47,149 bases of DNA from Escherichia phage JeanPiccard. Each line of letters opens with the position of its first letter. Positions within the stretch are counted from its first letter, which is position 1. The stretch is from sequence record MZ501080. One strand, 5' to 3'. The translations under genes and the position numbers were made by a program. Of the stretch, positions 1-14,132 are shown piece after piece. A model generated the notes under the pieces. That model searched no databases. It saw nothing but the letters and a program-made list of their open reading frames with translations, and was not told the DNA's origin.

Positions 1-507
1 ATGAGCAAAGCAGCATTAAAGATGGGTGAGGGAAATTTCAAGGCACTCTACAACAAGAAGTATGGCGATATTGCTATGGTGGCAATCAACCGTAAGTATA
101 CGCCTGAGGAGGTTTTCGATTTCGCAGTGAGATACTTCTCCTGGGCTGAGGGTGAGGCAATTAAAGCCATTGAGACGGCGGCATTCCGGGGTGTGGTTAG
201 TGAGAGCTTAGTGCACAAGCCTAGAGTGTTCACATTAACCGGCCTGGCACTATTCATGGGTGTTAACATCAATAGATTCGCTCGTTGGCGTGCTGAGGCT
301 GGATACTCTGACGTGATGGAATTCATTGATAACGTAATCTACGAACAGAAATATCAGCTCTGCGTTGCAGGCATTATCAACTCCACCATTGTTGGTAAAG
401 AGCTTGGCATTGATAAGCCGCAGGAGATCACCATTAGCAACAACTCCACAGCCAACGACGTTGATAGCATGAAGGAAGCGCTTGAGTCTGTTATTGGTAA
501 GTTGTAG
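1..507 (+). CDS. terminase small subunit (may be 5'-truncated by window edge)
   Basis: ORF directly upstream of large terminase; HTH-like segment LTGLALFMGVNINRFARW; position in packaging module. Confidence 0.6.
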   Translation: MSKAALKMGEGNFKALYNKKYGDIAMVAINRKYTPEEVFDFAVRYFSWAEGEAIKAIETAAFRGVVSESLVHKPRVFTLTGLALFMGVNINRFARWRAEAGYSDVMEFIDNVIYEQKYQLCVAGIINSTIVGKELGIDKPQEITISNNSTANDVDSMKEALESVIGKL

Positions 508-522
508 CACTTATTGTTAAAA
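505..522 (+). promoter_or_regulatory. dyad motif TAGCACttatTGTTAAAA (family copy a); TAG is the terS stop codon
   Basis: member of repeated TAGCAC-N5-TTG(C/T)TAAA family; followed about 22 nt later by TGaGATAAT -10-like element. Confidence 0.4.
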
Positions 523-575
523 GAAGAGCCCCAATCAGTGAGATAATGGTCCCAATAAACTAACGAGGTGATGAT

Positions 576-1052
576 ATGGATTGGGGTGATTTTTTCTATT
601 TAAGCAGCGAATCTCCTAGTGGTCTAAAATGGAAAGTTGACAAAGGGAGGGTAAGGGCTGGCGATAACGCTATAACGGCAATTGGTAATGGCTATTACAA
701 GGGCAGGTTAAACCAGGTGACTGTTTATGCCCACAGGGTAGTTTATTTTCTTGCGTACGGAGTAAAGCCAGAGGTAATAGATCACATTGATGGTGATGGC
801 CTTAATAACTCAATAGACAATCTTCGAGACGGAACAACAAGGCAGAATATGCAAAACAGAGCGTGTAAGGGCTACAGCTACAACAAAAGGGATGACGTTT
901 ATTACGCGCAGATAACAAAGAATGGGGTGACTAGACATATTGGGTCTTTCTCCACAAAGGAATCAGCCATAGCTGCATACCTAAGAGAGAAGTCTTTAGT
1001 TCATGAGTTTTATAATGAGGAAAGAGATATATGCTCATCTGGGAAGAAATGA
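576..1052 (+). CDS. HNH homing endonuclease with AP2-like DNA-binding domain
   Basis: HIDGDGLNNSIDNLR HNH motif; C-terminal AP2-like segment; inserted between terS and terL; paralog at 13303..13779. Confidence 0.8.
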   Translation: MDWGDFFYLSSESPSGLKWKVDKGRVRAGDNAITAIGNGYYKGRLNQVTVYAHRVVYFLAYGVKPEVIDHIDGDGLNNSIDNLRDGTTRQNMQNRACKGYSYNKRDDVYYAQITKNGVTRHIGSFSTKESAIAAYLREKSLVHEFYNEERDICSSGKK

Positions 1053-2593
1053 CAAGTCAGGAGAAGCTAGCCGTTAAGGCCATCTCAGAGCATAGTTTTG
1101 AGGGCTTTTTAAGGTGTTGGTTTTCAATAACGCAAGGAGAGCGATACATCCCCAATTGGCATCACAAGTACTTGTGCAGAATTATCGACGAGATTATTGC
1201 CGGAGAGCGGAAAGACACCATCATTAACATAGCTCCGGGTAGCGGAAAGACAGAAATTACATCAATCCACTTCCCGGTTTACTCGATGCTAAAGCTAAAG
1301 AAGGTTCGCAACCTGAACATCTCGTTCGCCGACTCAAACGTGAAGCGAAACTCAAAGCGCGTCCGTGACTTGATATCATCAAAGGAGTTCCAGGAGCTAT
1401 GGCCTTGCAAGTTCGGGACAAATAAAGATGACGAGATTCAGATCGTTGATGACAATGGAAAGGTTAGATTCGAGTCCATATCAGCATCAAAAGGAGGTAG
1501 GATTACTGGCACGCGTGGTGGGTATATTACCGACACATACAGTGGCGCGGTAATGCTGGATGACTTCGATAAACCCGACGAGATGTTTTCATCTGTATAC
1601 AGAGCCAAGAGTCACACGCTGCTTGGTAATACCATTCGTTCGCGTCGAGCAAGCTCGGTAAAGGGGAAGGCAACTCCAATTATCCAGATTCAGCAGAGAC
1701 TTCACGTCAATGACTCAACATGGTTCATGCTTAGCGGCGGCATGGGGATTGATTTTGATTTGGTTAAGATACCAGCACTGGTTACTGAAGATTACGCCGA
1801 TACATTACCTGACTGGATTAAGCAGCAATTTATTGATGATGTATTATCAAGCGAATATGTTGAGCGTGATGGGGTGAGGTATTATAGCTACTTTCCAGGA
1901 AAGGAGTCTGTGCATGACCTGGTTGCGATGTGGGATAGTGACCCGTACACGTTCCTTAGCCAGTATCAACAGGAACCCGTAGCGCTCGGCGGCAATCTGA
2001 TTAACGTGGACTGGTTCCAGCGAATCAGTGATACATTCAGACCTCCAGCTAAGTACGATTACCGATTCATCACATGCGATACTGCAATGACTACAAAGAG
2101 TTATAGTGACTTCTCTGTACTTCAGCTGTGGGGCTATAAGGATGCTAAGATTTACCTGATAGACCAGCGTAGAGGTAAGTGGGAGGCACCAGAGTTGGAG
2201 GCTGAGCTTCTGGATTTTGAGAAGAAATCAAGGGCAACCAGTCAGACGGATGGCATCCTTCGAAAGATTATCATCGAGAAGAAAGCCTCTGGCATAGGCT
2301 TGATTCAATCGGCGGGTAGAGTTATGCGAACACCGATAGAGCCATACGTACCGGATAACGACAAGCTTACTCGCGTAATGAGCGCATTACCACAGATTAA
2401 GACTGGTAACGTCGTTCTTCCAGAGTCAGCGACATGGCTAAATGGATTGCTTACTGAGGTTGCGGCTTTTACCGCAGACGACTCACATAAGCACGATGAC
2501 CAAATTGACTGTCTAACAATGGCAGTAAACCTTGTTCTCAATATCGCAGATGATCCTAAGTCCAGATTAATGCGCATAGCGGGAATTAAATAG
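1049..2593 (+). CDS. terminase large subunit
   Basis: about 515 aa; Walker A-like PGSGKTE; C-terminal nuclease-like region; ATGA overlap with upstream stop, GGGAAG RBS (alternative ATG at 1031). Confidence 0.9.
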   Translation: MTSQEKLAVKAISEHSFEGFLRCWFSITQGERYIPNWHHKYLCRIIDEIIAGERKDTIINIAPGSGKTEITSIHFPVYSMLKLKKVRNLNISFADSNVKRNSKRVRDLISSKEFQELWPCKFGTNKDDEIQIVDDNGKVRFESISASKGGRITGTRGGYITDTYSGAVMLDDFDKPDEMFSSVYRAKSHTLLGNTIRSRRASSVKGKATPIIQIQQRLHVNDSTWFMLSGGMGIDFDLVKIPALVTEDYADTLPDWIKQQFIDDVLSSEYVERDGVRYYSYFPGKESVHDLVAMWDSDPYTFLSQYQQEPVALGGNLINVDWFQRISDTFRPPAKYDYRFITCDTAMTTKSYSDFSVLQLWGYKDAKIYLIDQRRGKWEAPELEAELLDFEKKSRATSQTDGILRKIIIEKKASGIGLIQSAGRVMRTPIEPYVPDNDKLTRVMSALPQIKTGNVVLPESATWLNGLLTEVAAFTADDSHKHDDQIDCLTMAVNLVLNIADDPKSRLMRIAGIK

Positions 2594-2605
2594 CCGTGAT
2601 AAACT

Positions 2606-2628
2606 AGCCCCTACATGGGGCTTTTTTA
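2606..2628 (+). terminator. rho-independent terminator
   Basis: hairpin AGCCCCtacaTGGGGCT followed by T6. Confidence 0.6.
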
Positions 2629-2640
2629 TTGGAGAAAAAC

Positions 2641-3906
2641 ATGGTCAAGACAGACAGCTACGCCAATATCTTTCTAGGCGGCAGTGATGGCAGTGAGATT
2701 TACGGAAGTTTACAGAATCAGGCGCCTACAATTCTGGCTTCGCTTTATGCGGATAATGCACTGGTGCGTCGAATTATAGACACAATCCCTGAAACGGCAT
2801 TGGCGGCAGGATTCCACATTGATGGTATTGATGACGAACCTGCATTCTGGTCACGCTGGGATGACCTGGAAATGACACAGAATATTAACGATGCCTGGTC
2901 ATGGGCGAGATTATTCGGTGGAGCGGCAATTGTCGCTATCGTTAAGGACAATAGAGCGCTAACAAGTCCGGTAAGGGAAGGTGCCGAGCTTGAAACTGTT
3001 CGCGTTTACGACCGTACTCAAGTAAAAGTGCAGACACGCGAGGAGAATCCCCGCAACGCACGTTTTGGCAAGCCTCTGACCTATCGGATCACTACTAATG
3101 AGAGCGATATGTTCTACGATGTGCACTACAGCCGAATTCACATCATTGACGGAGAGCGAGTACCTAACGTAATGCGTCGACAGAATGATGGCTGGGGCCG
3201 TAGCGTTCTTTCCATTGACATCCTTGACTCAATTAAGGATTACACCAAATGCGAACAACTGGCAACTCAGTTGCTGAAGCGTAAGCAGCAAGCGGTCTGG
3301 AAAGTAAAAGATTTAGCCTTGTTGTGTGATGATAGCGAAGGGGTTGGTGCTGCCAGATTGCGACTTGCCCAGGTAGATAACAATAGCGGCGTTGGTCAGG
3401 CGATTGGCATTGACGCTGAATCTGAAGATTACAGCATTCTAAACTCTGATATTGGCGGGATTGATGCGTTCCTGGATAAGAAGTTTGATAGAATCGTTGC
3501 TCTGAGCGGCATTCATGAAATCATCTTGAAGAACAAGAACGTTGGCGGCGTATCATCAAGCCAGAACACAGCACTTGAGACATTCCACAAGCTGGTTGAC
3601 CGCAAGCGCAACTCTGAACTTCTTCCGATTCTTGAGTTCTTAATCCCGTTCATCGTTAACGTTGACGAATGGTCAGTTGAGTTTAATCCTTTAGCTCAGG
3701 AATCAAGCAAGGACAAAGCAGAGATTCTGGAGAAGAACGTAAACAGCATTGCGGCGCTAATTGCAGCTGGCGCTATGGATACTAACGAGGCACGTGATAC
3801 ACTACGAACTATCGCGCCAGAGATTAAGATTTCAGATGGCGATATTGACGCTCAACAACAAGAACCACCAGAGGAGGATGTAATTAATGAGCAAAATCCG
3901 CTATGA
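2641..3906 (+). CDS. portal protein
   Basis: about 420 aa ORF immediately after terL; GGAG RBS before ATG 2641 (track start 2629 is TTG); acidic C-terminus. Confidence 0.8.
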   Translation: MVKTDSYANIFLGGSDGSEIYGSLQNQAPTILASLYADNALVRRIIDTIPETALAAGFHIDGIDDEPAFWSRWDDLEMTQNINDAWSWARLFGGAAIVAIVKDNRALTSPVREGAELETVRVYDRTQVKVQTREENPRNARFGKPLTYRITTNESDMFYDVHYSRIHIIDGERVPNVMRRQNDGWGRSVLSIDILDSIKDYTKCEQLATQLLKRKQQAVWKVKDLALLCDDSEGVGAARLRLAQVDNNSGVGQAIGIDAESEDYSILNSDIGGIDAFLDKKFDRIVALSGIHEIILKNKNVGGVSSSQNTALETFHKLVDRKRNSELLPILEFLIPFIVNVDEWSVEFNPLAQESSKDKAEILEKNVNSIAALIAAGAMDTNEARDTLRTIAPEIKISDGDIDAQQQEPPEEDVINEQNPL

Positions 3907-10255: not shown

Positions 10256-13231
10256 ATGGCAACAAATGAATTAGCCGGAATCACGCTAGCCGTAGACGTA
10301 TCGCAGGTAGATAGGGGAACGCAATCCCTACAGAAGTTCAGGCAGGCTAACCAACAGGCCGCTTCCGGGATTAGTGAATTCATAAACGCTGAGCAGGTTG
10401 CTAAAAACCAGGCGAGAGATACAGCTCGCGCACTTGCTGAGCAACAGGCATCACTGGCTAAGCTGCAAACTGCGATTGATCCAACTGCGGCAAAGTTCCG
10501 TAAGCTGCAAGAGGCGGCCGTAGGTCTTGATAAGGCGTTCGCTGCTGGCGTAGTTCCTGATGAGGAATTTTTCCGATTAGGTGAGGCTCTTGAAACGCAG
10601 AATGCAAAACTTGCGCGTTCACGCGCAGCTTTAACCGAGGAGGGGAGGGCGGCGGCTCAAGCGGCAAAGGAGAAAGCGGCAGCAAAAGCAGCAGCGGATA
10701 GATTTATCGCATCACTTGAGCGACAAGCTCAAGCTGCGACGCTGACTCGTGAGGAGTACTTAAAGCTACAGGCTGCACAGCTTGGTGTTAGTTCTCAGGC
10801 TGCGCCTATTATTGACAGAATCGCTGAGGCTTCAGAGCGAGCAAATGTTCAATTAGCAAACCAAAGCAAGGCTTTTCAGAAGTCCGGGCTAAGTGCCGGG
10901 CAATACAAGAACGCCATTAGCCAACTGCCAGCACAGATTACAGATATTGGAACATCACTTGCTGGTGGCATTCCGATTTGGCTTATTGCAATTCAGCAGG
11001 GCGGACAAATTAAGGATGCATTCGGAGGTATTGGTAACACATTTAGATTCGCGCTGGCTGCACTAAACCATTTTAATGTTGCTGTTGGCGTTTTGGGAGG
11101 CGCACTCGTCGCTCTCGGTATTGGCGCGGCTCAGGCTGAAAGTGAATTCAGGGCATTGAACTCTGCCATTGCATTCTCAAACAACTCGACAATCACTTCA
11201 ATCTCGCAAATTAGACAGTTGGTTAGCTCTGTTTCTGACGCTACCGGCGCCACCAGAGGACTGGTAACCAGCATCGCAACAAGCCTTGTTGAGCAAGGAA
11301 ACCTTACGCTAACGCAGATTGATAAGATTACTAAATCAACAGCAAGATGGGCGCAGTTGACAGGTAAGGATGCAAAGGAGATTACTGGTTACTACAACCA
11401 GATTGCAAGCGACCCAATCCAGGGTTTAGTTGACTTGGATAAGCGCTTTAACTTCCTCACACAGGGGCAGCTGACGACAATCGAAAACCTGAGAAAGACA
11501 AAGGGGGAGGTCGAGGCCGTTACCGCCGCGATTGATATTTTCAGCAAGTCGCAGGAAGCCAACCTTAACGACATTGCAGCTCAATTAACTCCACTTGAGT
11601 TAGCATGGAATGACTTCAAGAAGTACATCTCTGATGTCTGGGATGCAATTAGCCGTAGAACACTAGGTGCTTTAAACCTGTTTGTTGACGTAATAGCAGG
11701 AACAATTGAGCAAATCAGGGTCTTCCTTAACCAGGGTGACGTTCTGATTGGTGAATTCGTAATCAGCGCAACTCAGGCATTGCAGAACATACCTGGCCTT
11801 GATGGTGTTGGTGATGATGTTATCAAGGGGCAGCAGAAGATTATCGATGCCGCCAAGAAGCAAAACCTTGAGCTAGAGAAGTCCATCAGGGAGCGAGATG
11901 CCAGAATCAGAGAGGGAGAGCTTGGTTACGTTAATCGCAGAGAGAATCAGAATACCAATGAGCAATCAGGGACCGATGAGGAATTCGCAAAAAGGAAGAA
12001 GGCACTTCAGGATGAGCTTGACGCGATCAAGAAAAACAGGAAAGAGGAAAATGGGAGGGTTAATGAGCAAAGGGATTTAACAATAGGTTATGAATCTGGC
12101 GTTCTGGCACTTCAGGCTCAACTCAAGGTTCTTCAGGAAAATCGGGATATTGGCGCAGTAATAAGCAATGAGCGCAAGCAGTATCTTCAGGAGGAGGCTA
12201 AATTCAGGATCCTTGAGCAGAGGCAGCTTGATGGCTCGATTACCAAAGAGCAAGCGAGACTTATCGTTGAAAAGGACAAAGTTCTTGAGTTGGCCAAGCA
12301 GAAGGCTGAACTAGGTGATCAGATTGTTTTGCAGGAGCGCGCCAATAAGTTAGCTGAAGATAACCGCAAGAAGATTCTTCAGATTAACAATGAGGCAAAT
12401 AACATTGATTTAGGCGCTGGATTGTCATCTCGAGAGCAGCAGAGAGCCAAAGAGATTCAGGCCCTCCAGTCCAATCAGGTTAATGCTGGTGGCGCACTTG
12501 ATGACGTGGATTTTCAGCAACTCCTCGAAGCAAGACGCAACTTTTACGCTCAGGAGGATGCGCTACGTGAAAACTGGCTCGCTGGCGTGAATCAATCCTT
12601 TGCCAATTGGGCTGAGAGCGCTAAGGATGCATTCTCAATTGCTGGAAGTTTAACCACAACAGTCTTTGAGGGCATTACCGACCAGATTACAAACCTTGTA
12701 ACAACTGGCGAGACAAACTTCAGGGAGTTTACTGTAAGCATCCTTAAGCAGATTGCTAAGATTGCGGCTCAGCTTCTTGTTGTCAAGGCAATTGAGTCTA
12801 GCTTAAGTAGCTTCGGTGGCACTGGTGGCGCTATTGGTTCAATTGCCTCAGCTATAGGTTTTGCTGGTGGCGGCTACACTGGTGATGGCGGGAAGTATCA
12901 GCCAGCAGGAACCGTACACCGCGGTGAGTTTGTATTCACAAAAGAAGCAACAAGCCGAATTGGTGTTAAGAACCTTTACGCGCTAATGAAGGGATACGCA
13001 AACGGTGGCGCTGTAGGTGGTCCATCTGGTTATGCTAATGGCGGTTTGGTTTCTGGTGGGTCAGATGTTAATGTTAGTGGCATCACCGTTAACGTTAATG
13101 GTGGCGTTGGTAGCGACCCAGAACAGGCCAAGGCATTGCAGAGTGGCGTTAAGGCTATCGTTGCGGAAGAAATTGCTCAGTCTTTCCAGCAGGGTGGAAA
13201 AGCGTATGCCTACCTGAGGGGCTTTAACTAA
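10256..13231 (+). CDS. tail tape measure protein
   Basis: 991 aa, Ala/Gln/Glu-rich coiled-coil composition, Gly-rich C-terminus; located after G/GT chaperones. Confidence 0.9.
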
Positions 13232-13249
13232 TAGCACTAAATGGTAAAG
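13232..13249 (+). promoter_or_regulatory. degenerate dyad motif TAGCACtaaaTGGTAAAG (family copy c)
   Basis: motif family member with one half-site altered; followed by TATAAT. Confidence 0.3.
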
Positions 13250-13302: not shown

Positions 13303-13779
13303 ATGAACTGGAATGATATTTTCGATTATAGGGATGGTGTTCTTTATTGGAAGATAAGTCCGAGGTCAAGAACCCCAATCGGATCAGTTGCCGGACATTT
13401 ATCAAAGGCTGGCTATATAACAACGTCATACATGAAGAGGGCTCTTCTTGCCCATAGGGTTGTGTGGGAAATGCATAACGGACCAATACCAGAAGGAATG
13501 CAGATAGACCACATAAATCACAACAGAAGTGATAACAGGATTTGCAATTTAAGACTTGCTACTGTTTTTGATAACAATCAAAACATGAGCAGAGGTAAGG
13601 GAAATAGAAGTGGCGTTGTTGGTGTTAGCTGGCATAAGAGCGCAAAAAAGTGGTGCGCTGAGATTCATGCGAATGGCAAAAAGAAATACCTCGGCGTGTT
13701 TGATAGTTTTGATGATGCGGTTCTCGCTAGAAAGAGCGCAGAGTTACATTTTGGTTTTCATGAAAATCACGGAGCATAA
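13303..13779 (+). CDS. HNH homing endonuclease with AP2-like domain (second copy)
   Basis: IDHINHNRSDNRICNLR HNH motif; AP2-like C-terminal part; inserted between tape measure and tail tip genes. Confidence 0.8.
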   Translation: MNWNDIFDYRDGVLYWKISPRSRTPIGSVAGHLSKAGYITTSYMKRALLAHRVVWEMHNGPIPEGMQIDHINHNRSDNRICNLRLATVFDNNQNMSRGKGNRSGVVGVSWHKSAKKWCAEIHANGKKKYLGVFDSFDDAVLARKSAELHFGFHENHGA

Positions 13780-13781
13780 AA

Positions 13782-14132
13782 ATGGCAATAGACAGTTTTA
13801 ACTGGTGCACTCAGATACAAAATGGAGGAGCCGCATTTTCCAACACGAACAATGTGCGAATCGTTAGCTTTGGTAATGGCTACGAGGCTAGAGGAACGGG
13901 AGGCTACCGCAGCAACAAGCGCAGTTACCAGATGACCTACACCAACAAGGACTGGCGGGATGTGATGGATTTCTGCTTCAACCACATCATTACACCGTTC
14001 TTCTGGACTACTCCGCAGGGAGATACATCAATGTTCGTTATCCAGCAAGATAGCATTAGCGTTACACCACTCAGTAAGGAAGTTCAGACTGTGAATATGC
14101 AATTCGTGGAAGTCTTTAGCTCAATGCGTTAA
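13782..14132 (+). CDS. minor tail protein (lambda M-like)
   Basis: 116 aa; first gene of M-L-K-I-J-like block. Confidence 0.7.
   Translation: MAIDSFNWCTQIQNGGAAFSNTNNVRIVSFGNGYEARGTGGYRSNKRSYQMTYTNKDWRDVMDFCFNHIITPFFWTTPQGDTSMFVIQQDSISVTPLSKEVQTVNMQFVEVFSSMR

What the first reader, a model, noticed from the sequence alone, without database searches (positions are those of the whole stretch)
576..1052. HNH-AP2 homing endonuclease inserted between terS and terL
A free-standing HNH endonuclease gene separates the small and large terminase genes and overlaps the terL start (ATGA). Insertion at the terminase junction is a classic homing site and may influence packaging gene expression or act in DNA cleavage during packaging.
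Basis: partly seen in the sequence, partly recalled or inferred. Interest (0 to 1): 0.45.

Follow-up and report, generated by a model that had tools for sequence, protein, structure and literature searches.

The report
Mobile HNH-AP2 nuclease gene between terminase genes
A T1/Rtp-like coliphage carries an intact, selfish-type HNH-AP2 nuclease gene with its own promoter-like leader between its two DNA-packaging genes. This site is empty in most relatives and holds different nuclease genes in others, so it is an ordinary homing-endonuclease insertion and not a packaging component.

Summary

One detail needs correcting. terL most likely starts at ATG 1031, giving a 22-nt overlap, not at the ATGA at 1049.

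Of the 60 best-matching phage records, 38 have a 20-28-nt terS-terL junction, 7 have a small ORF, and 15 have an HNH gene from at least five lineages. The gene is therefore dispensable and sporadic. A metagenomic relative shares the cassette plus about 120 nt of terL at two- to six-fold lower synonymous divergence than the flanks. HNH pN/pS is 0.047, so the gene is functional and was exchanged more recently than its surroundings.

It lacks the CxxC zinc sites of cos-packaging HNH proteins, and T1-like phages are reported to have circularly permuted, terminally redundant genomes.

Verdict: a free-standing homing-endonuclease cassette, a new member of a well-known kind. Interest is low. The cassette's leader is one copy of a promoter-like module repeated 16 times in the genome.

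The parts
1..507 (+). terS (small terminase), the upstream flank. Its TAG stop codon (505-507) is also the first 3 nt of the cassette's promoter-like module.
   Evidence: Pfam GP3_package 4.8e-12 and PHROG 606 1.7e-55. All HNH-occupied Braunvirinae/Rogunavirinae junctions examined end terS with TAG followed by CAC/CAA; empty junctions end with TAA followed by CAAT.
505..547 (+). Promoter-like module at the left end of the cassette: TAGCACTTATTGTTAAAA (505-522; imperfect palindrome TAGCA-N5-TGTTA), 19 nt, then the -10-like hexamer GATAAT (542-547).
   Evidence: It is one of 16 copies of the same module in the window. A looser pattern finds 19 sites in the window against a mean of 0.84 in shuffles, and 19 sites in Rtp, including upstream of rtp20 and rtp40. 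It is 85-89% identical to the leaders of the unrelated rtp20-type HNH genes. Promoter function is inferred, not shown. The generic sigma-70 scan did not call it.
565..572 (+). Shine-Dalgarno sequence GAGGTGAT of the HNH gene.
   Evidence: Read directly from the sequence. The GAGG core (565-568) lies 7 nt upstream of ATG 576.
576..1052 (+). HNH-AP2 endonuclease gene (158 aa).
   Evidence: pN/pS is 0.047 against the 98%-identical metagenomic orthologue.
576..728 (+). N-terminal beta-strand region (aa 1-51), I-HmuI-like.
723..854 (+). HNH (beta-beta-alpha-metal) nuclease motif, aa 50-93, with D69, H70, N78, N82 and N91.
   Evidence: Pfam HNH_3 covers aa 50-93. H53, D69, H70, N78, N82 and N91 are invariant in 62 homologues. 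D69/H70, N82 and N91 align with D74/H75, N87 and N96 of I-HmuI.
867..1004 (+). AP2-like DNA-binding domain (aa ~98-143): three strands plus a helix.
1017..1052 (+). Right end of the cassette: terL RBS (GAGG 1017-1020), terL start ATG 1031, and the 22-nt HNH/terL overlap (1031-1052).
   Evidence: Phages carrying the window-type HNH all begin terL with M-L-(I/V)-(I/V)-W. Phages without it begin MSLVW, MANLIW or MSxLIVW, so the cassette supplies terL's initiation region.
1031..2593 (+). terL (large terminase), the downstream flank. Its first ~120 nt share the low divergence of the cassette in the comparison with metagenomic contig L015.
   Evidence: PHROG 38 6e-107 and Terminase_6C 4.6e-7. pS is 0.13 for 1031-1150, against 0.53 and 0.82 further downstream.

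Best explanation
Positions 505-~1036 are a free-standing homing-endonuclease gene cassette lodged in the terS-terL spacer of an Rtp-like (Drexlerviridae, Braunvirinae) coliphage. It has three parts: a copy of the phage's own promoter-like module, a 158-aa endonuclease ORF, and a 3' end that provides terL's ribosome-binding site and first codons. The endonuclease has an I-HmuI-like N-terminal beta region, an HNH_3 nuclease motif and a C-terminal AP2 DNA-binding domain. Proposed mechanism (inferred): during mixed infection with a relative that lacks the gene, the enzyme binds a long asymmetric site near the empty junction or in the first ~100 nt of terL. Binding is through the AP2 and N-terminal domains, and the HNH site nicks or cuts there. 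Recombinational repair from the HNH-bearing genome then copies the cassette, together with roughly 100 nt of adjacent terL, into the recipient. Its own allele is protected because the insertion and the altered terL 5' end disrupt the site. The gene is not needed for packaging. Its only likely effect on the host phage is extra transcription entering terL. Shown here: gene, domains, intact catalytic residues, purifying selection, presence/absence polymorphism, multiple independent occupants of the site, and a younger cassette-plus-flank block. Inferred: nuclease activity, target site, homing itself and promoter activity.
Against: No cleavage site is known, and nothing here demonstrates nuclease activity or super-Mendelian inheritance. 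The co-conversion-like gradient rests on one independent relative (L015 and L016 are the same variant) and could reflect ordinary homologous recombination without endonuclease involvement. Against ES, the cassette and flanks are about equally diverged at the DNA level (about 75%), so there is no sign of recent transfer from that lineage. The strong purifying selection could also mean the protein benefits the phage rather than being purely selfish. I-HmuI-type enzymes nick one strand, so the exact way a break initiates conversion is uncertain.
Confidence: 0.76

Rival explanations
1. Packaging accessory nuclease. The HNH protein works with terminase to cut concatemeric DNA, as HK97 gp74 and related HNH proteins do in cos phages.
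For: The gene sits directly between terS and terL and overlaps terL. HNH proteins next to terminase genes are known packaging components in cos phages (PMC3592412; discussed in PMC10448857).
Against: 45 of the 60 best-matching phage records have no HNH gene at this junction, including characterised viable phages ACG-M12 and DTL with 17-19-nt spacers (PMC5816109). The protein is HNH_3, with only two cysteines and no CxxC pairs, and gets no PF01844 hit at E<=10. Cos-associated HNH proteins carry a [CxxC]2 zinc site (PMC3592412). T1-like phages are described as circularly permuted and terminally redundant, not cos (PMC4070988). terL has its own RNaseH-like nuclease domain. In BEK2 the junction HNH has lost the catalytic His (DRINH), although BEK2 is a deposited complete-genome isolate.
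Confidence: 0.04
2. Domesticated or beneficial nuclease. The protein is kept because it helps the phage, for example by excluding competing Drexlerviridae genomes in co-infection (marker exclusion) or attacking satellite or host DNA, rather than for its own spread.
For: Very low pN/pS (0.047). The gene has its own promoter-like module. HEG-derived nucleases are known to be co-opted in phage conflicts (PMC10448857).
Against: This is not really separable from homing, because marker exclusion is the population-level face of homing. The patchy distribution, the turnover of lineages at one site and a catalytically dead copy in BEK2 fit a gain-decay-loss cycle better than a maintained beneficial function.
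Confidence: 0.12
3. Passive mosaic module. The ORF moves only by ordinary homologous recombination between the repeated promoter-like modules and conserved terL 5' ends. The nuclease plays no part in its own transfer, or is inactive.
For: The leader is 85-89% identical between otherwise unrelated HNH alleles, and the switch from Rtp-like to ES-like sequence lies at about nt 595, at the end of that shared leader. This pattern is expected if the module serves as a recombination anchor.
Against: All catalytic residues are intact and under purifying selection. The Tempevirinae orthologue (BEK12A) occupies the same junction without any promoter module, with its ATG overlapping the terS stop, so the module is not required for site-specific residence.
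Confidence: 0.08

Closest known systems
HNH endonuclease of Escherichia phages ES (WNO47585.1) and AN_ECEAS
   Same: Orthologue with the same 158-aa length and the same terS-HNH-terL position. It has the same 22-nt overlap with terL and the same M-L-x-x-W terL start.
   Different: Only 75-76% aa and about 75% nt identity. The terS next to it is only 67% identical to the window's, so the two phages are mosaic relative to each other.
rtp20 of phage Rtp and the other junction HNH genes of Braunvirinae/Rogunavirinae (BEK2, FP, 2725-N35, TR1-3, phiEB49)
   Same: Same insertion site and same HNH-AP2-like architecture, at 158-170 aa. In the Braunvirinae members (Rtp, FP, BEK2, 2725-N35, TR2) the promoter-like leader is also the same, 85-89% identical in DNA. 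phiEB49 shares only the first ~15 nt of that leader.
   Different: The coding sequence is only 30-37% identical in protein. These genes belong to the MNWHD...HENHG clade, which also occupies other sites (rtp40, window 13303..13779).
I-HmuI (phage SPO1 intron-encoded HNH homing endonuclease, PDB 1U3E)
   Different: I-HmuI is intron-encoded, whereas this gene is free-standing with no intron detected. From my own knowledge of the published structure, I-HmuI ends in helical/HTH DNA-binding modules rather than an AP2 domain, and it is a strand-specific nickase. Whether this enzyme nicks or cuts both strands is unknown.
HNH-AP2 homing endonuclease family (the 'IPA-HNH' and earlier-described HNH+AP2 HEGs of phages, cyanobacteria and protists; PMC10448857)
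   Same: N-terminal HNH plus C-terminal AP2 architecture. Typical location next to essential genes, including terminase, and at boundaries of genetic exchange.
   Different: The ICP1 IPA-HNH proteins are too divergent for the Pfam HNH_3 profile (PMC10448857), whereas this protein is a clear HNH_3 member.
HK97 gp74-type packaging HNH proteins
   Same: HNH superfamily and adjacency to terminase genes.
   Different: Those proteins are conserved across their phage group, lie by the cos site, and carry zinc-binding CxxC pairs (PMC3592412). This one is sporadic, lacks those cysteines, and sits in a phage group reported as circularly permuted and terminally redundant (PMC4070988).
Free-standing Seg/Mob homing endonuclease genes of T4-like phages
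   Same: From established knowledge: intergenic location between conserved genes, own promoters, and spread by double-strand-break repair with co-conversion of flanking markers. The pattern seen here (own promoter-like module, younger cassette plus ~120 nt of flank) fits this.
   Different: Different nuclease and DNA-binding domain families and a different phage lineage. Homing has been shown experimentally for those genes but not for this one.

Membership tests
HNH_3 / I-HmuI-like HNH endonucleases (PF13392) | Sequence matches the family profile above the curated threshold | tested here: met
   48.1 bits against a cutoff of 24.8, E 8.7e-13, aa 50-93 covering the full 46-position profile. PHROG 99 at 4.4e-46.
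HNH_3 / I-HmuI-like HNH endonucleases (PF13392) | Catalytic and metal-binding residues of the beta-beta-alpha-metal motif are present (D-H ... N ... N) | tested here: met
   D69, H70, N78, N82 and N91 are invariant in 62 homologues. They align with D74/H75, N87 and N96 of I-HmuI. The roles of the I-HmuI residues are taken from my knowledge of the published structure.
HNH_3 / I-HmuI-like HNH endonucleases (PF13392) | Fold resembles a solved family member | tested here: met
HNH_3 / I-HmuI-like HNH endonucleases (PF13392) | Site-specific DNA nicking or cleavage activity | not testable with these tools
   Requires purified protein and substrate DNA.
AP2 DNA-binding domain (PF00847) | The protein's own sequence matches the Pfam AP2 profile | tested here: not met
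   No AP2 hit for the full protein or for aa 96-158 alone, even at E<=10.
AP2 DNA-binding domain (PF00847) | Homologues aligned over the same C-terminal region match the AP2 profile | tested here: met
   29 of 62 members of alignment A1 match PF00847 at E<=0.01, best 4.1e-9.
AP2 DNA-binding domain (PF00847) | Three-stranded antiparallel sheet packed against one helix, superposable on solved AP2/ERF domains | tested here: met
Free-standing homing endonuclease gene (HEG) | Presence/absence polymorphism at one locus among otherwise collinear relatives | tested here: met
   38 empty, 7 small-ORF and 15 HNH-occupied junctions among the 60 best records. Boundaries were mapped to the terS stop codon and terL codons 1-3.
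Free-standing homing endonuclease gene (HEG) | Evolutionary history differs from that of the flanking genes (lateral spread, co-conversion of adjacent sequence) | tested here: met
   The terS, HNH and terL identities are incongruent between Rtp, ES and BEK12A. pS is 0.13-0.18 for the cassette plus terL nt 1-120, against 0.375 to 0.82 in the flanks, relative to L015. This rests on a single independent comparison.
Free-standing homing endonuclease gene (HEG) | The enzyme cuts the HEG-less allele near the insertion site and is over-transmitted in mixed infection | not testable with these tools
   Needs cleavage assays and phage crosses.
Packaging-associated HNH (HK97 gp74 type) | Conserved at this position throughout the phage group | tested here: not met
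   No HNH gene is present at the junction in 45 of the 60 best-matching records.
Packaging-associated HNH (HK97 gp74 type) | HNH domain with a [CxxC]2 zinc site (PMC3592412) | tested here: not met
   Only two cysteines (C97, C152) and no CxxC (sequence). No PF01844 hit at E<=10.
Packaging-associated HNH (HK97 gp74 type) | The host phage packages from a cos site | not tested
   Genome ends cannot be read from the window. The literature describes T1-like phages as terminally redundant and circularly permuted (PMC4070988).

The most novel reading that the evidence does not exclude
The ~60-nt promoter-like modules repeated through the genome (a TAGCA-N5-TGCTA palindrome centred about 42 nt upstream of the presumed start site, plus a TATAGT-type -10) may be more than promoters. 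They could act as portable homology anchors that let different HNH ORFs be swapped in and out of the same slots. In that case the terS-terL cassette would also place terL under an extra, regulator-dependent promoter, making the selfish element a regulatory part of the packaging operon.
Probability: 0.15. Interest if true: 0.4.

Novelty: new member of a known kind. Interest (0 to 1): 0.18.

Why it matters
The finding mainly affects annotation. The gene should be labelled a free-standing HNH-AP2 homing endonuclease, not a terminase accessory, and terL should start at 1031. It adds one more documented case in which the terS-terL spacer of Drexlerviridae is a hot spot, invaded repeatedly by different HNH lineages. 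It also shows a small co-conversion-like block reaching into terL. That matters for anyone using terL or terS as phylogenetic markers in this family, because the first ~120 nt of terL can travel with the nuclease gene. It does not open a new biological question.

Tried and rejected
1. An RNA hairpin sequestering the HNH start. CCCCAATC (529-536) can pair with GATTGGGG (579-586), but the fold is not unusual (z = -1.37; 19 of 200 shuffles fold as well). The pairing is also not preserved in the Rtp or ES leaders. Rejected.

2. A canonical sigma-70 promoter in the leader. The generic scan found none on the + strand upstream of the gene. The leader was instead recognised as a copy of the phage-specific repeated module.

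3. The small ORFs at the BEK6, AugustePiccard and PCEc3 junctions as decayed HNH-AP2 remnants. An HMM built from the 62-sequence alignment scored about 0 bits on all three forward frames of those junctions. There is no evidence either way.

4. A direct Pfam AP2 hit on the protein or on its C-terminal 63 aa. None was found, so the question was settled through homologues and structure instead.

5. An intron or ribozyme context. There were no Rfam matches at E<=1 in 1-3000.

6. A near-identical GenBank phage with or without the gene. None exists in the collection. The best terL match is BEK6 at 88.7%, and the single '>=99%' record is a 38-nt chance match in a Vibrio phage.

7. The word-index homologue search gave only 9 hits. 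The exhaustive HMMER search was needed to build a usable alignment.

Full report
**What the window is**

The window is a complete-looking, 47-kb genome of an Rtp-like coliphage (Drexlerviridae, Braunvirinae), oriented to begin at terS. The best GenBank matches for the first 3 kb are phages BEK6 (89%) and vB_EcoS_UALMA_PCEc3 (88%). For 3-27 kb the best matches are Veterinaerplatzvirus T145P1 records at 88%. No near-identical record is in the phage collection.

**Observation**

- ORF 576..1052 (+) encodes 158 aa. It has an ATG start and a TGA stop, an in-frame TAA at 561-563, and a strong Shine-Dalgarno sequence, GAGGTGAT, at 565-572.
- The upstream gene 1..507 is terS (Pfam GP3_package, PHROG 606).
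- The downstream gene is terL (PHROG 38, Terminase_6C), followed by portal at 2629..3906.
- The ORF matches Pfam HNH_3 at twice the gathering score, and PHROG 99 at 4e-46.

So the gene, its position and its HNH nature are confirmed.

**AP2**

The window protein does not match Pfam AP2 even at E<=10. I therefore tested the claim in two other ways.

First, an exhaustive HMMER search found 43,878 relatives at E<=0.001. I aligned 62 of them, mostly single-domain proteins of similar length. All 62 match HNH_3, and 29 match AP2 over the aligned C-terminal region, best E 4.1e-9.

The architecture is therefore an I-HmuI-like N-terminal beta region, then HNH_3, then AP2. H53, D69, H70, N78, N82 and N91 are invariant in the family. 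D69/H70, N82 and N91 align with D74/H75, N87 and N96 of I-HmuI. The active site looks intact.

**terL start**

The residues encoded just upstream of it (L-I-W-E-E) are conserved in every relative examined. The codon at 1049 is CTG, TTG, TTA or CTA in Rtp, BEK12A, phiEB49 and DTL.

terL therefore most likely starts at ATG 1031, with GAGG at 1017-1020. The HNH/terL overlap is 22 nt. This is the same arrangement as annotated in phage ES.

**Is the gene universal or sporadic?**

I estimated junction length in the 60 best-matching phage records from the spans of their terS and terL matches. I then read 13 of the junctions directly.

| Junction type | Records | Length | Examples |
|---|---|---|---|
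| Empty spacer | 38 | 20-28 nt | ACG-M12, DTL, Msk, T145P1, IME253, the vB_EcoS series |
| Small unrelated ORF | 7 | 107-172 nt | BEK6, AugustePiccard, PCEc3 |
| HNH gene | 15 | 520-586 nt | see lineages below |

Empty junctions read TAA-CAATACGAGGGTATAAC-ATG (ACG-M12; DTL is nearly the same), where that ATG or GTG is the terL start.

The HNH occupants fall into at least five lineages:
- the window type (ES and AN_ECEAS at 75-76% aa; BEK12A at 58%; tblastn also places BEK26 and EC147 here at ~61%);
- rtp20;
- FP/BEK2/2725-N35;
- TR1-3;
- phiEB49.

The last four belong to a separate MNWHD...HENHG clade. That clade also occupies other genomic sites, and it is only 30-37% identical to the window protein.

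The gene is thus dispensable. The site has been invaded repeatedly, and window-type orthologues keep to this junction in two subfamilies examined, Braunvirinae and Tempevirinae.

**Mosaicism and age**

| Compared with | terS aa identity | HNH aa identity | terL aa identity |
|---|---|---|---|
| Rtp | 94% | 30% | 82% |
| ES | 67% | 75% | 87.5% |

In a sliding comparison the sequence switches from Rtp-like to ES-like near nt 595. It becomes AugustePiccard-like (92-94%) from about 1050, and the BLAST match to AugustePiccard resumes at window 1037.

Two metagenomic contigs (L015 and L016, the same variant) carry a 98%-identical protein in the same context. Synonymous divergence (pS) against L015 is as follows.

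| Segment | pS |
|---|---|
| terS | 0.375 |
| HNH | 0.18 |
| terL nt 1-120 | 0.13 |
| terL nt 121-270 | 0.53 |
| terL nt 271-456 | 0.82 |

Mismatch rates in the cassette block differ from both flanks, at P=6e-4 and P=3e-16. HNH pN/pS is 0.047.

The cassette plus about 120 nt of terL is therefore a younger, co-inherited block under purifying selection. This is what homing with co-conversion predicts, but it is a single comparison, and plain recombination could produce the same pattern. GC3 of the gene (40.9%) is well below that of terS (55.6%) and terL (50.7%).

**The leader**

The 68-nt leader and the first ~20 nt of the ORF are 85-89% identical to those of the rtp20-type genes, although the coding sequences are unrelated.

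The reason is that 505-547 is one copy of a module present 16 times in the window. The module reads AATAGCAC-N3-TTG(C/T)TAAA, then 19 nt, then TATAGT or TATAAT, then TAnCnCATCGAAACGA, then an RBS and ATG. A looser pattern gives 19 sites in the window against 0.84 in shuffles, and 19 sites in Rtp.

TAGCA-N5-TGCTA is a 5-bp inverted repeat. It lies 22 nt upstream of the -10-like hexamer, too far to serve as a -35 box. That puts it roughly at -42, where class II activators bind (inference).

The TAG of the module doubles as the terS stop codon. This explains why the occupied junctions that carry the module end in TAG and empty ones in TAA.

The window's second HNH gene (13303..13779) and Rtp's rtp20 and rtp40 are each directly preceded by such a module. 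In Braunvirinae each HNH cassette therefore consists of a promoter-like module plus an ORF. BEK12A (Tempevirinae) has the orthologous HNH gene without any module, with its ATG overlapping the terS stop.

**Packaging role**

This is unlikely, for five reasons:
- Most relatives lack any HNH gene at the junction.
- The protein has two cysteines and no CxxC pair, and gets no PF01844 hit. Cos-associated HNH proteins carry a [CxxC]2 zinc site (PMC3592412).
- T1-like genomes are described as terminally redundant and circularly permuted (PMC4070988).
- terL has its own nuclease domain.
- The BEK2 junction HNH has lost its catalytic His.

**Literature context**

HNH plus AP2 is a recognised homing-endonuclease family. 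HEGs cluster beside essential genes, including terminase, and mark recombination boundaries (PMC10448857). Sporadic, repositioned HNH genes are already noted for Drexlerviridae (PMC13164509). Phage DTL has six HNH or homing endonuclease genes, none of them at this junction (PMC5816109). rtp20 is annotated as an HNH endonuclease at this very site in the Rtp records.

**Verdict**

It is an ordinary, already familiar kind of element, and specifically a new allele: 76% identical to the nearest GenBank protein and 98% identical to a metagenomic one. Interest is low.

The modestly useful additions are:
- the corrected terL start;
- the structural proof of the AP2 domain;
- the catalogue of at least five lineages at one junction;
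- the co-conversion-like block in terL;
- the recognition that the cassette's leader is a copy of a genome-wide promoter-like module.

Noticed in passing
window + strand: 505, 9222, 13232, 24012, 29630, 32131, 32457, 33285, 42304, 42831, 43648, 44281; - strand: 40600, 39449, 21725, 20977: Sixteen copies of a conserved ~60-nt promoter-like module: AATAGCAC-N3-TTG(C/T)TAAA, 19 nt, TATAGT/TATAAT, TAnCnCATCGAAACGA, RBS, ATG. It contains the inverted repeat TAGCA-N5-TGCTA, spaced a fixed 22 nt from the -10-like hexamer. That is too far for a -35 box and suggests an operator for a dimeric phage regulator centred near -42. Rtp has 19 sites matching a looser pattern. I found no description of it in the papers searched.
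   Followed up: partly
window 13303..13779 (+): A second HNH-AP2 gene, also 158 aa and 30% identical to the first. It belongs to the MNWHD...HENHG clade and lies between the 991-aa ORF 10256..13231 (probably the tape measure protein, by position and size) and ORF 13782..14132. A promoter-like module at 13232 directly precedes it.
   Followed up: partly
L007 (phage BEK2) 576..1088: The junction HNH gene of BEK2 reads DRINH where its 96-98% identical relatives FP and 2725-N35 read DHINH. The catalytic histidine is replaced by arginine, which looks like a decaying homing endonuclease gene.
   Followed up: no
window 2594..2628; L002 3188..3544; L005 2321..3168; L004 2550..3032: The terL-portal spacer is a second polymorphic slot. 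It is 35 nt and empty in the window. Rtp has rtp22 there, behind its own promoter-like module. AugustePiccard has a homing endonuclease plus a hypothetical gene, and BEK12A has another HNH gene.
   Followed up: no
L001 526..675 (BEK6), L005 526..621 (AugustePiccard), L012 526..627 (PCEc3): In phages without an HNH gene but with a 107-172-nt junction, a small ORF (31-49 aa) starts at what is terL's RBS and ATG in empty junctions (CAATAnGAnGGTATAACA-ATG), so these inserts took over terL's initiation region. No similarity to HNH-AP2 was detectable.
   Followed up: partly
phage records PP134917.1 (Pseudomonas phage PsgS01F) and MG065688.1 (Campylobacter phage A110b): Two records labelled as Pseudomonas and Campylobacter phages are ordinary Rtp-like coliphage genomes. 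PsgS01F gives the same match statistics and record length as Escherichia phage UALMA_PCEc3. The host labels look doubtful.
   Followed up: no
window 529..536 and 579..586: An 8-bp complementarity (CCCCAATC / GATTGGGG) between the leader and codons 2-4 of the HNH gene. It is not statistically unusual and not conserved in the Rtp or ES leaders.
   Followed up: yes
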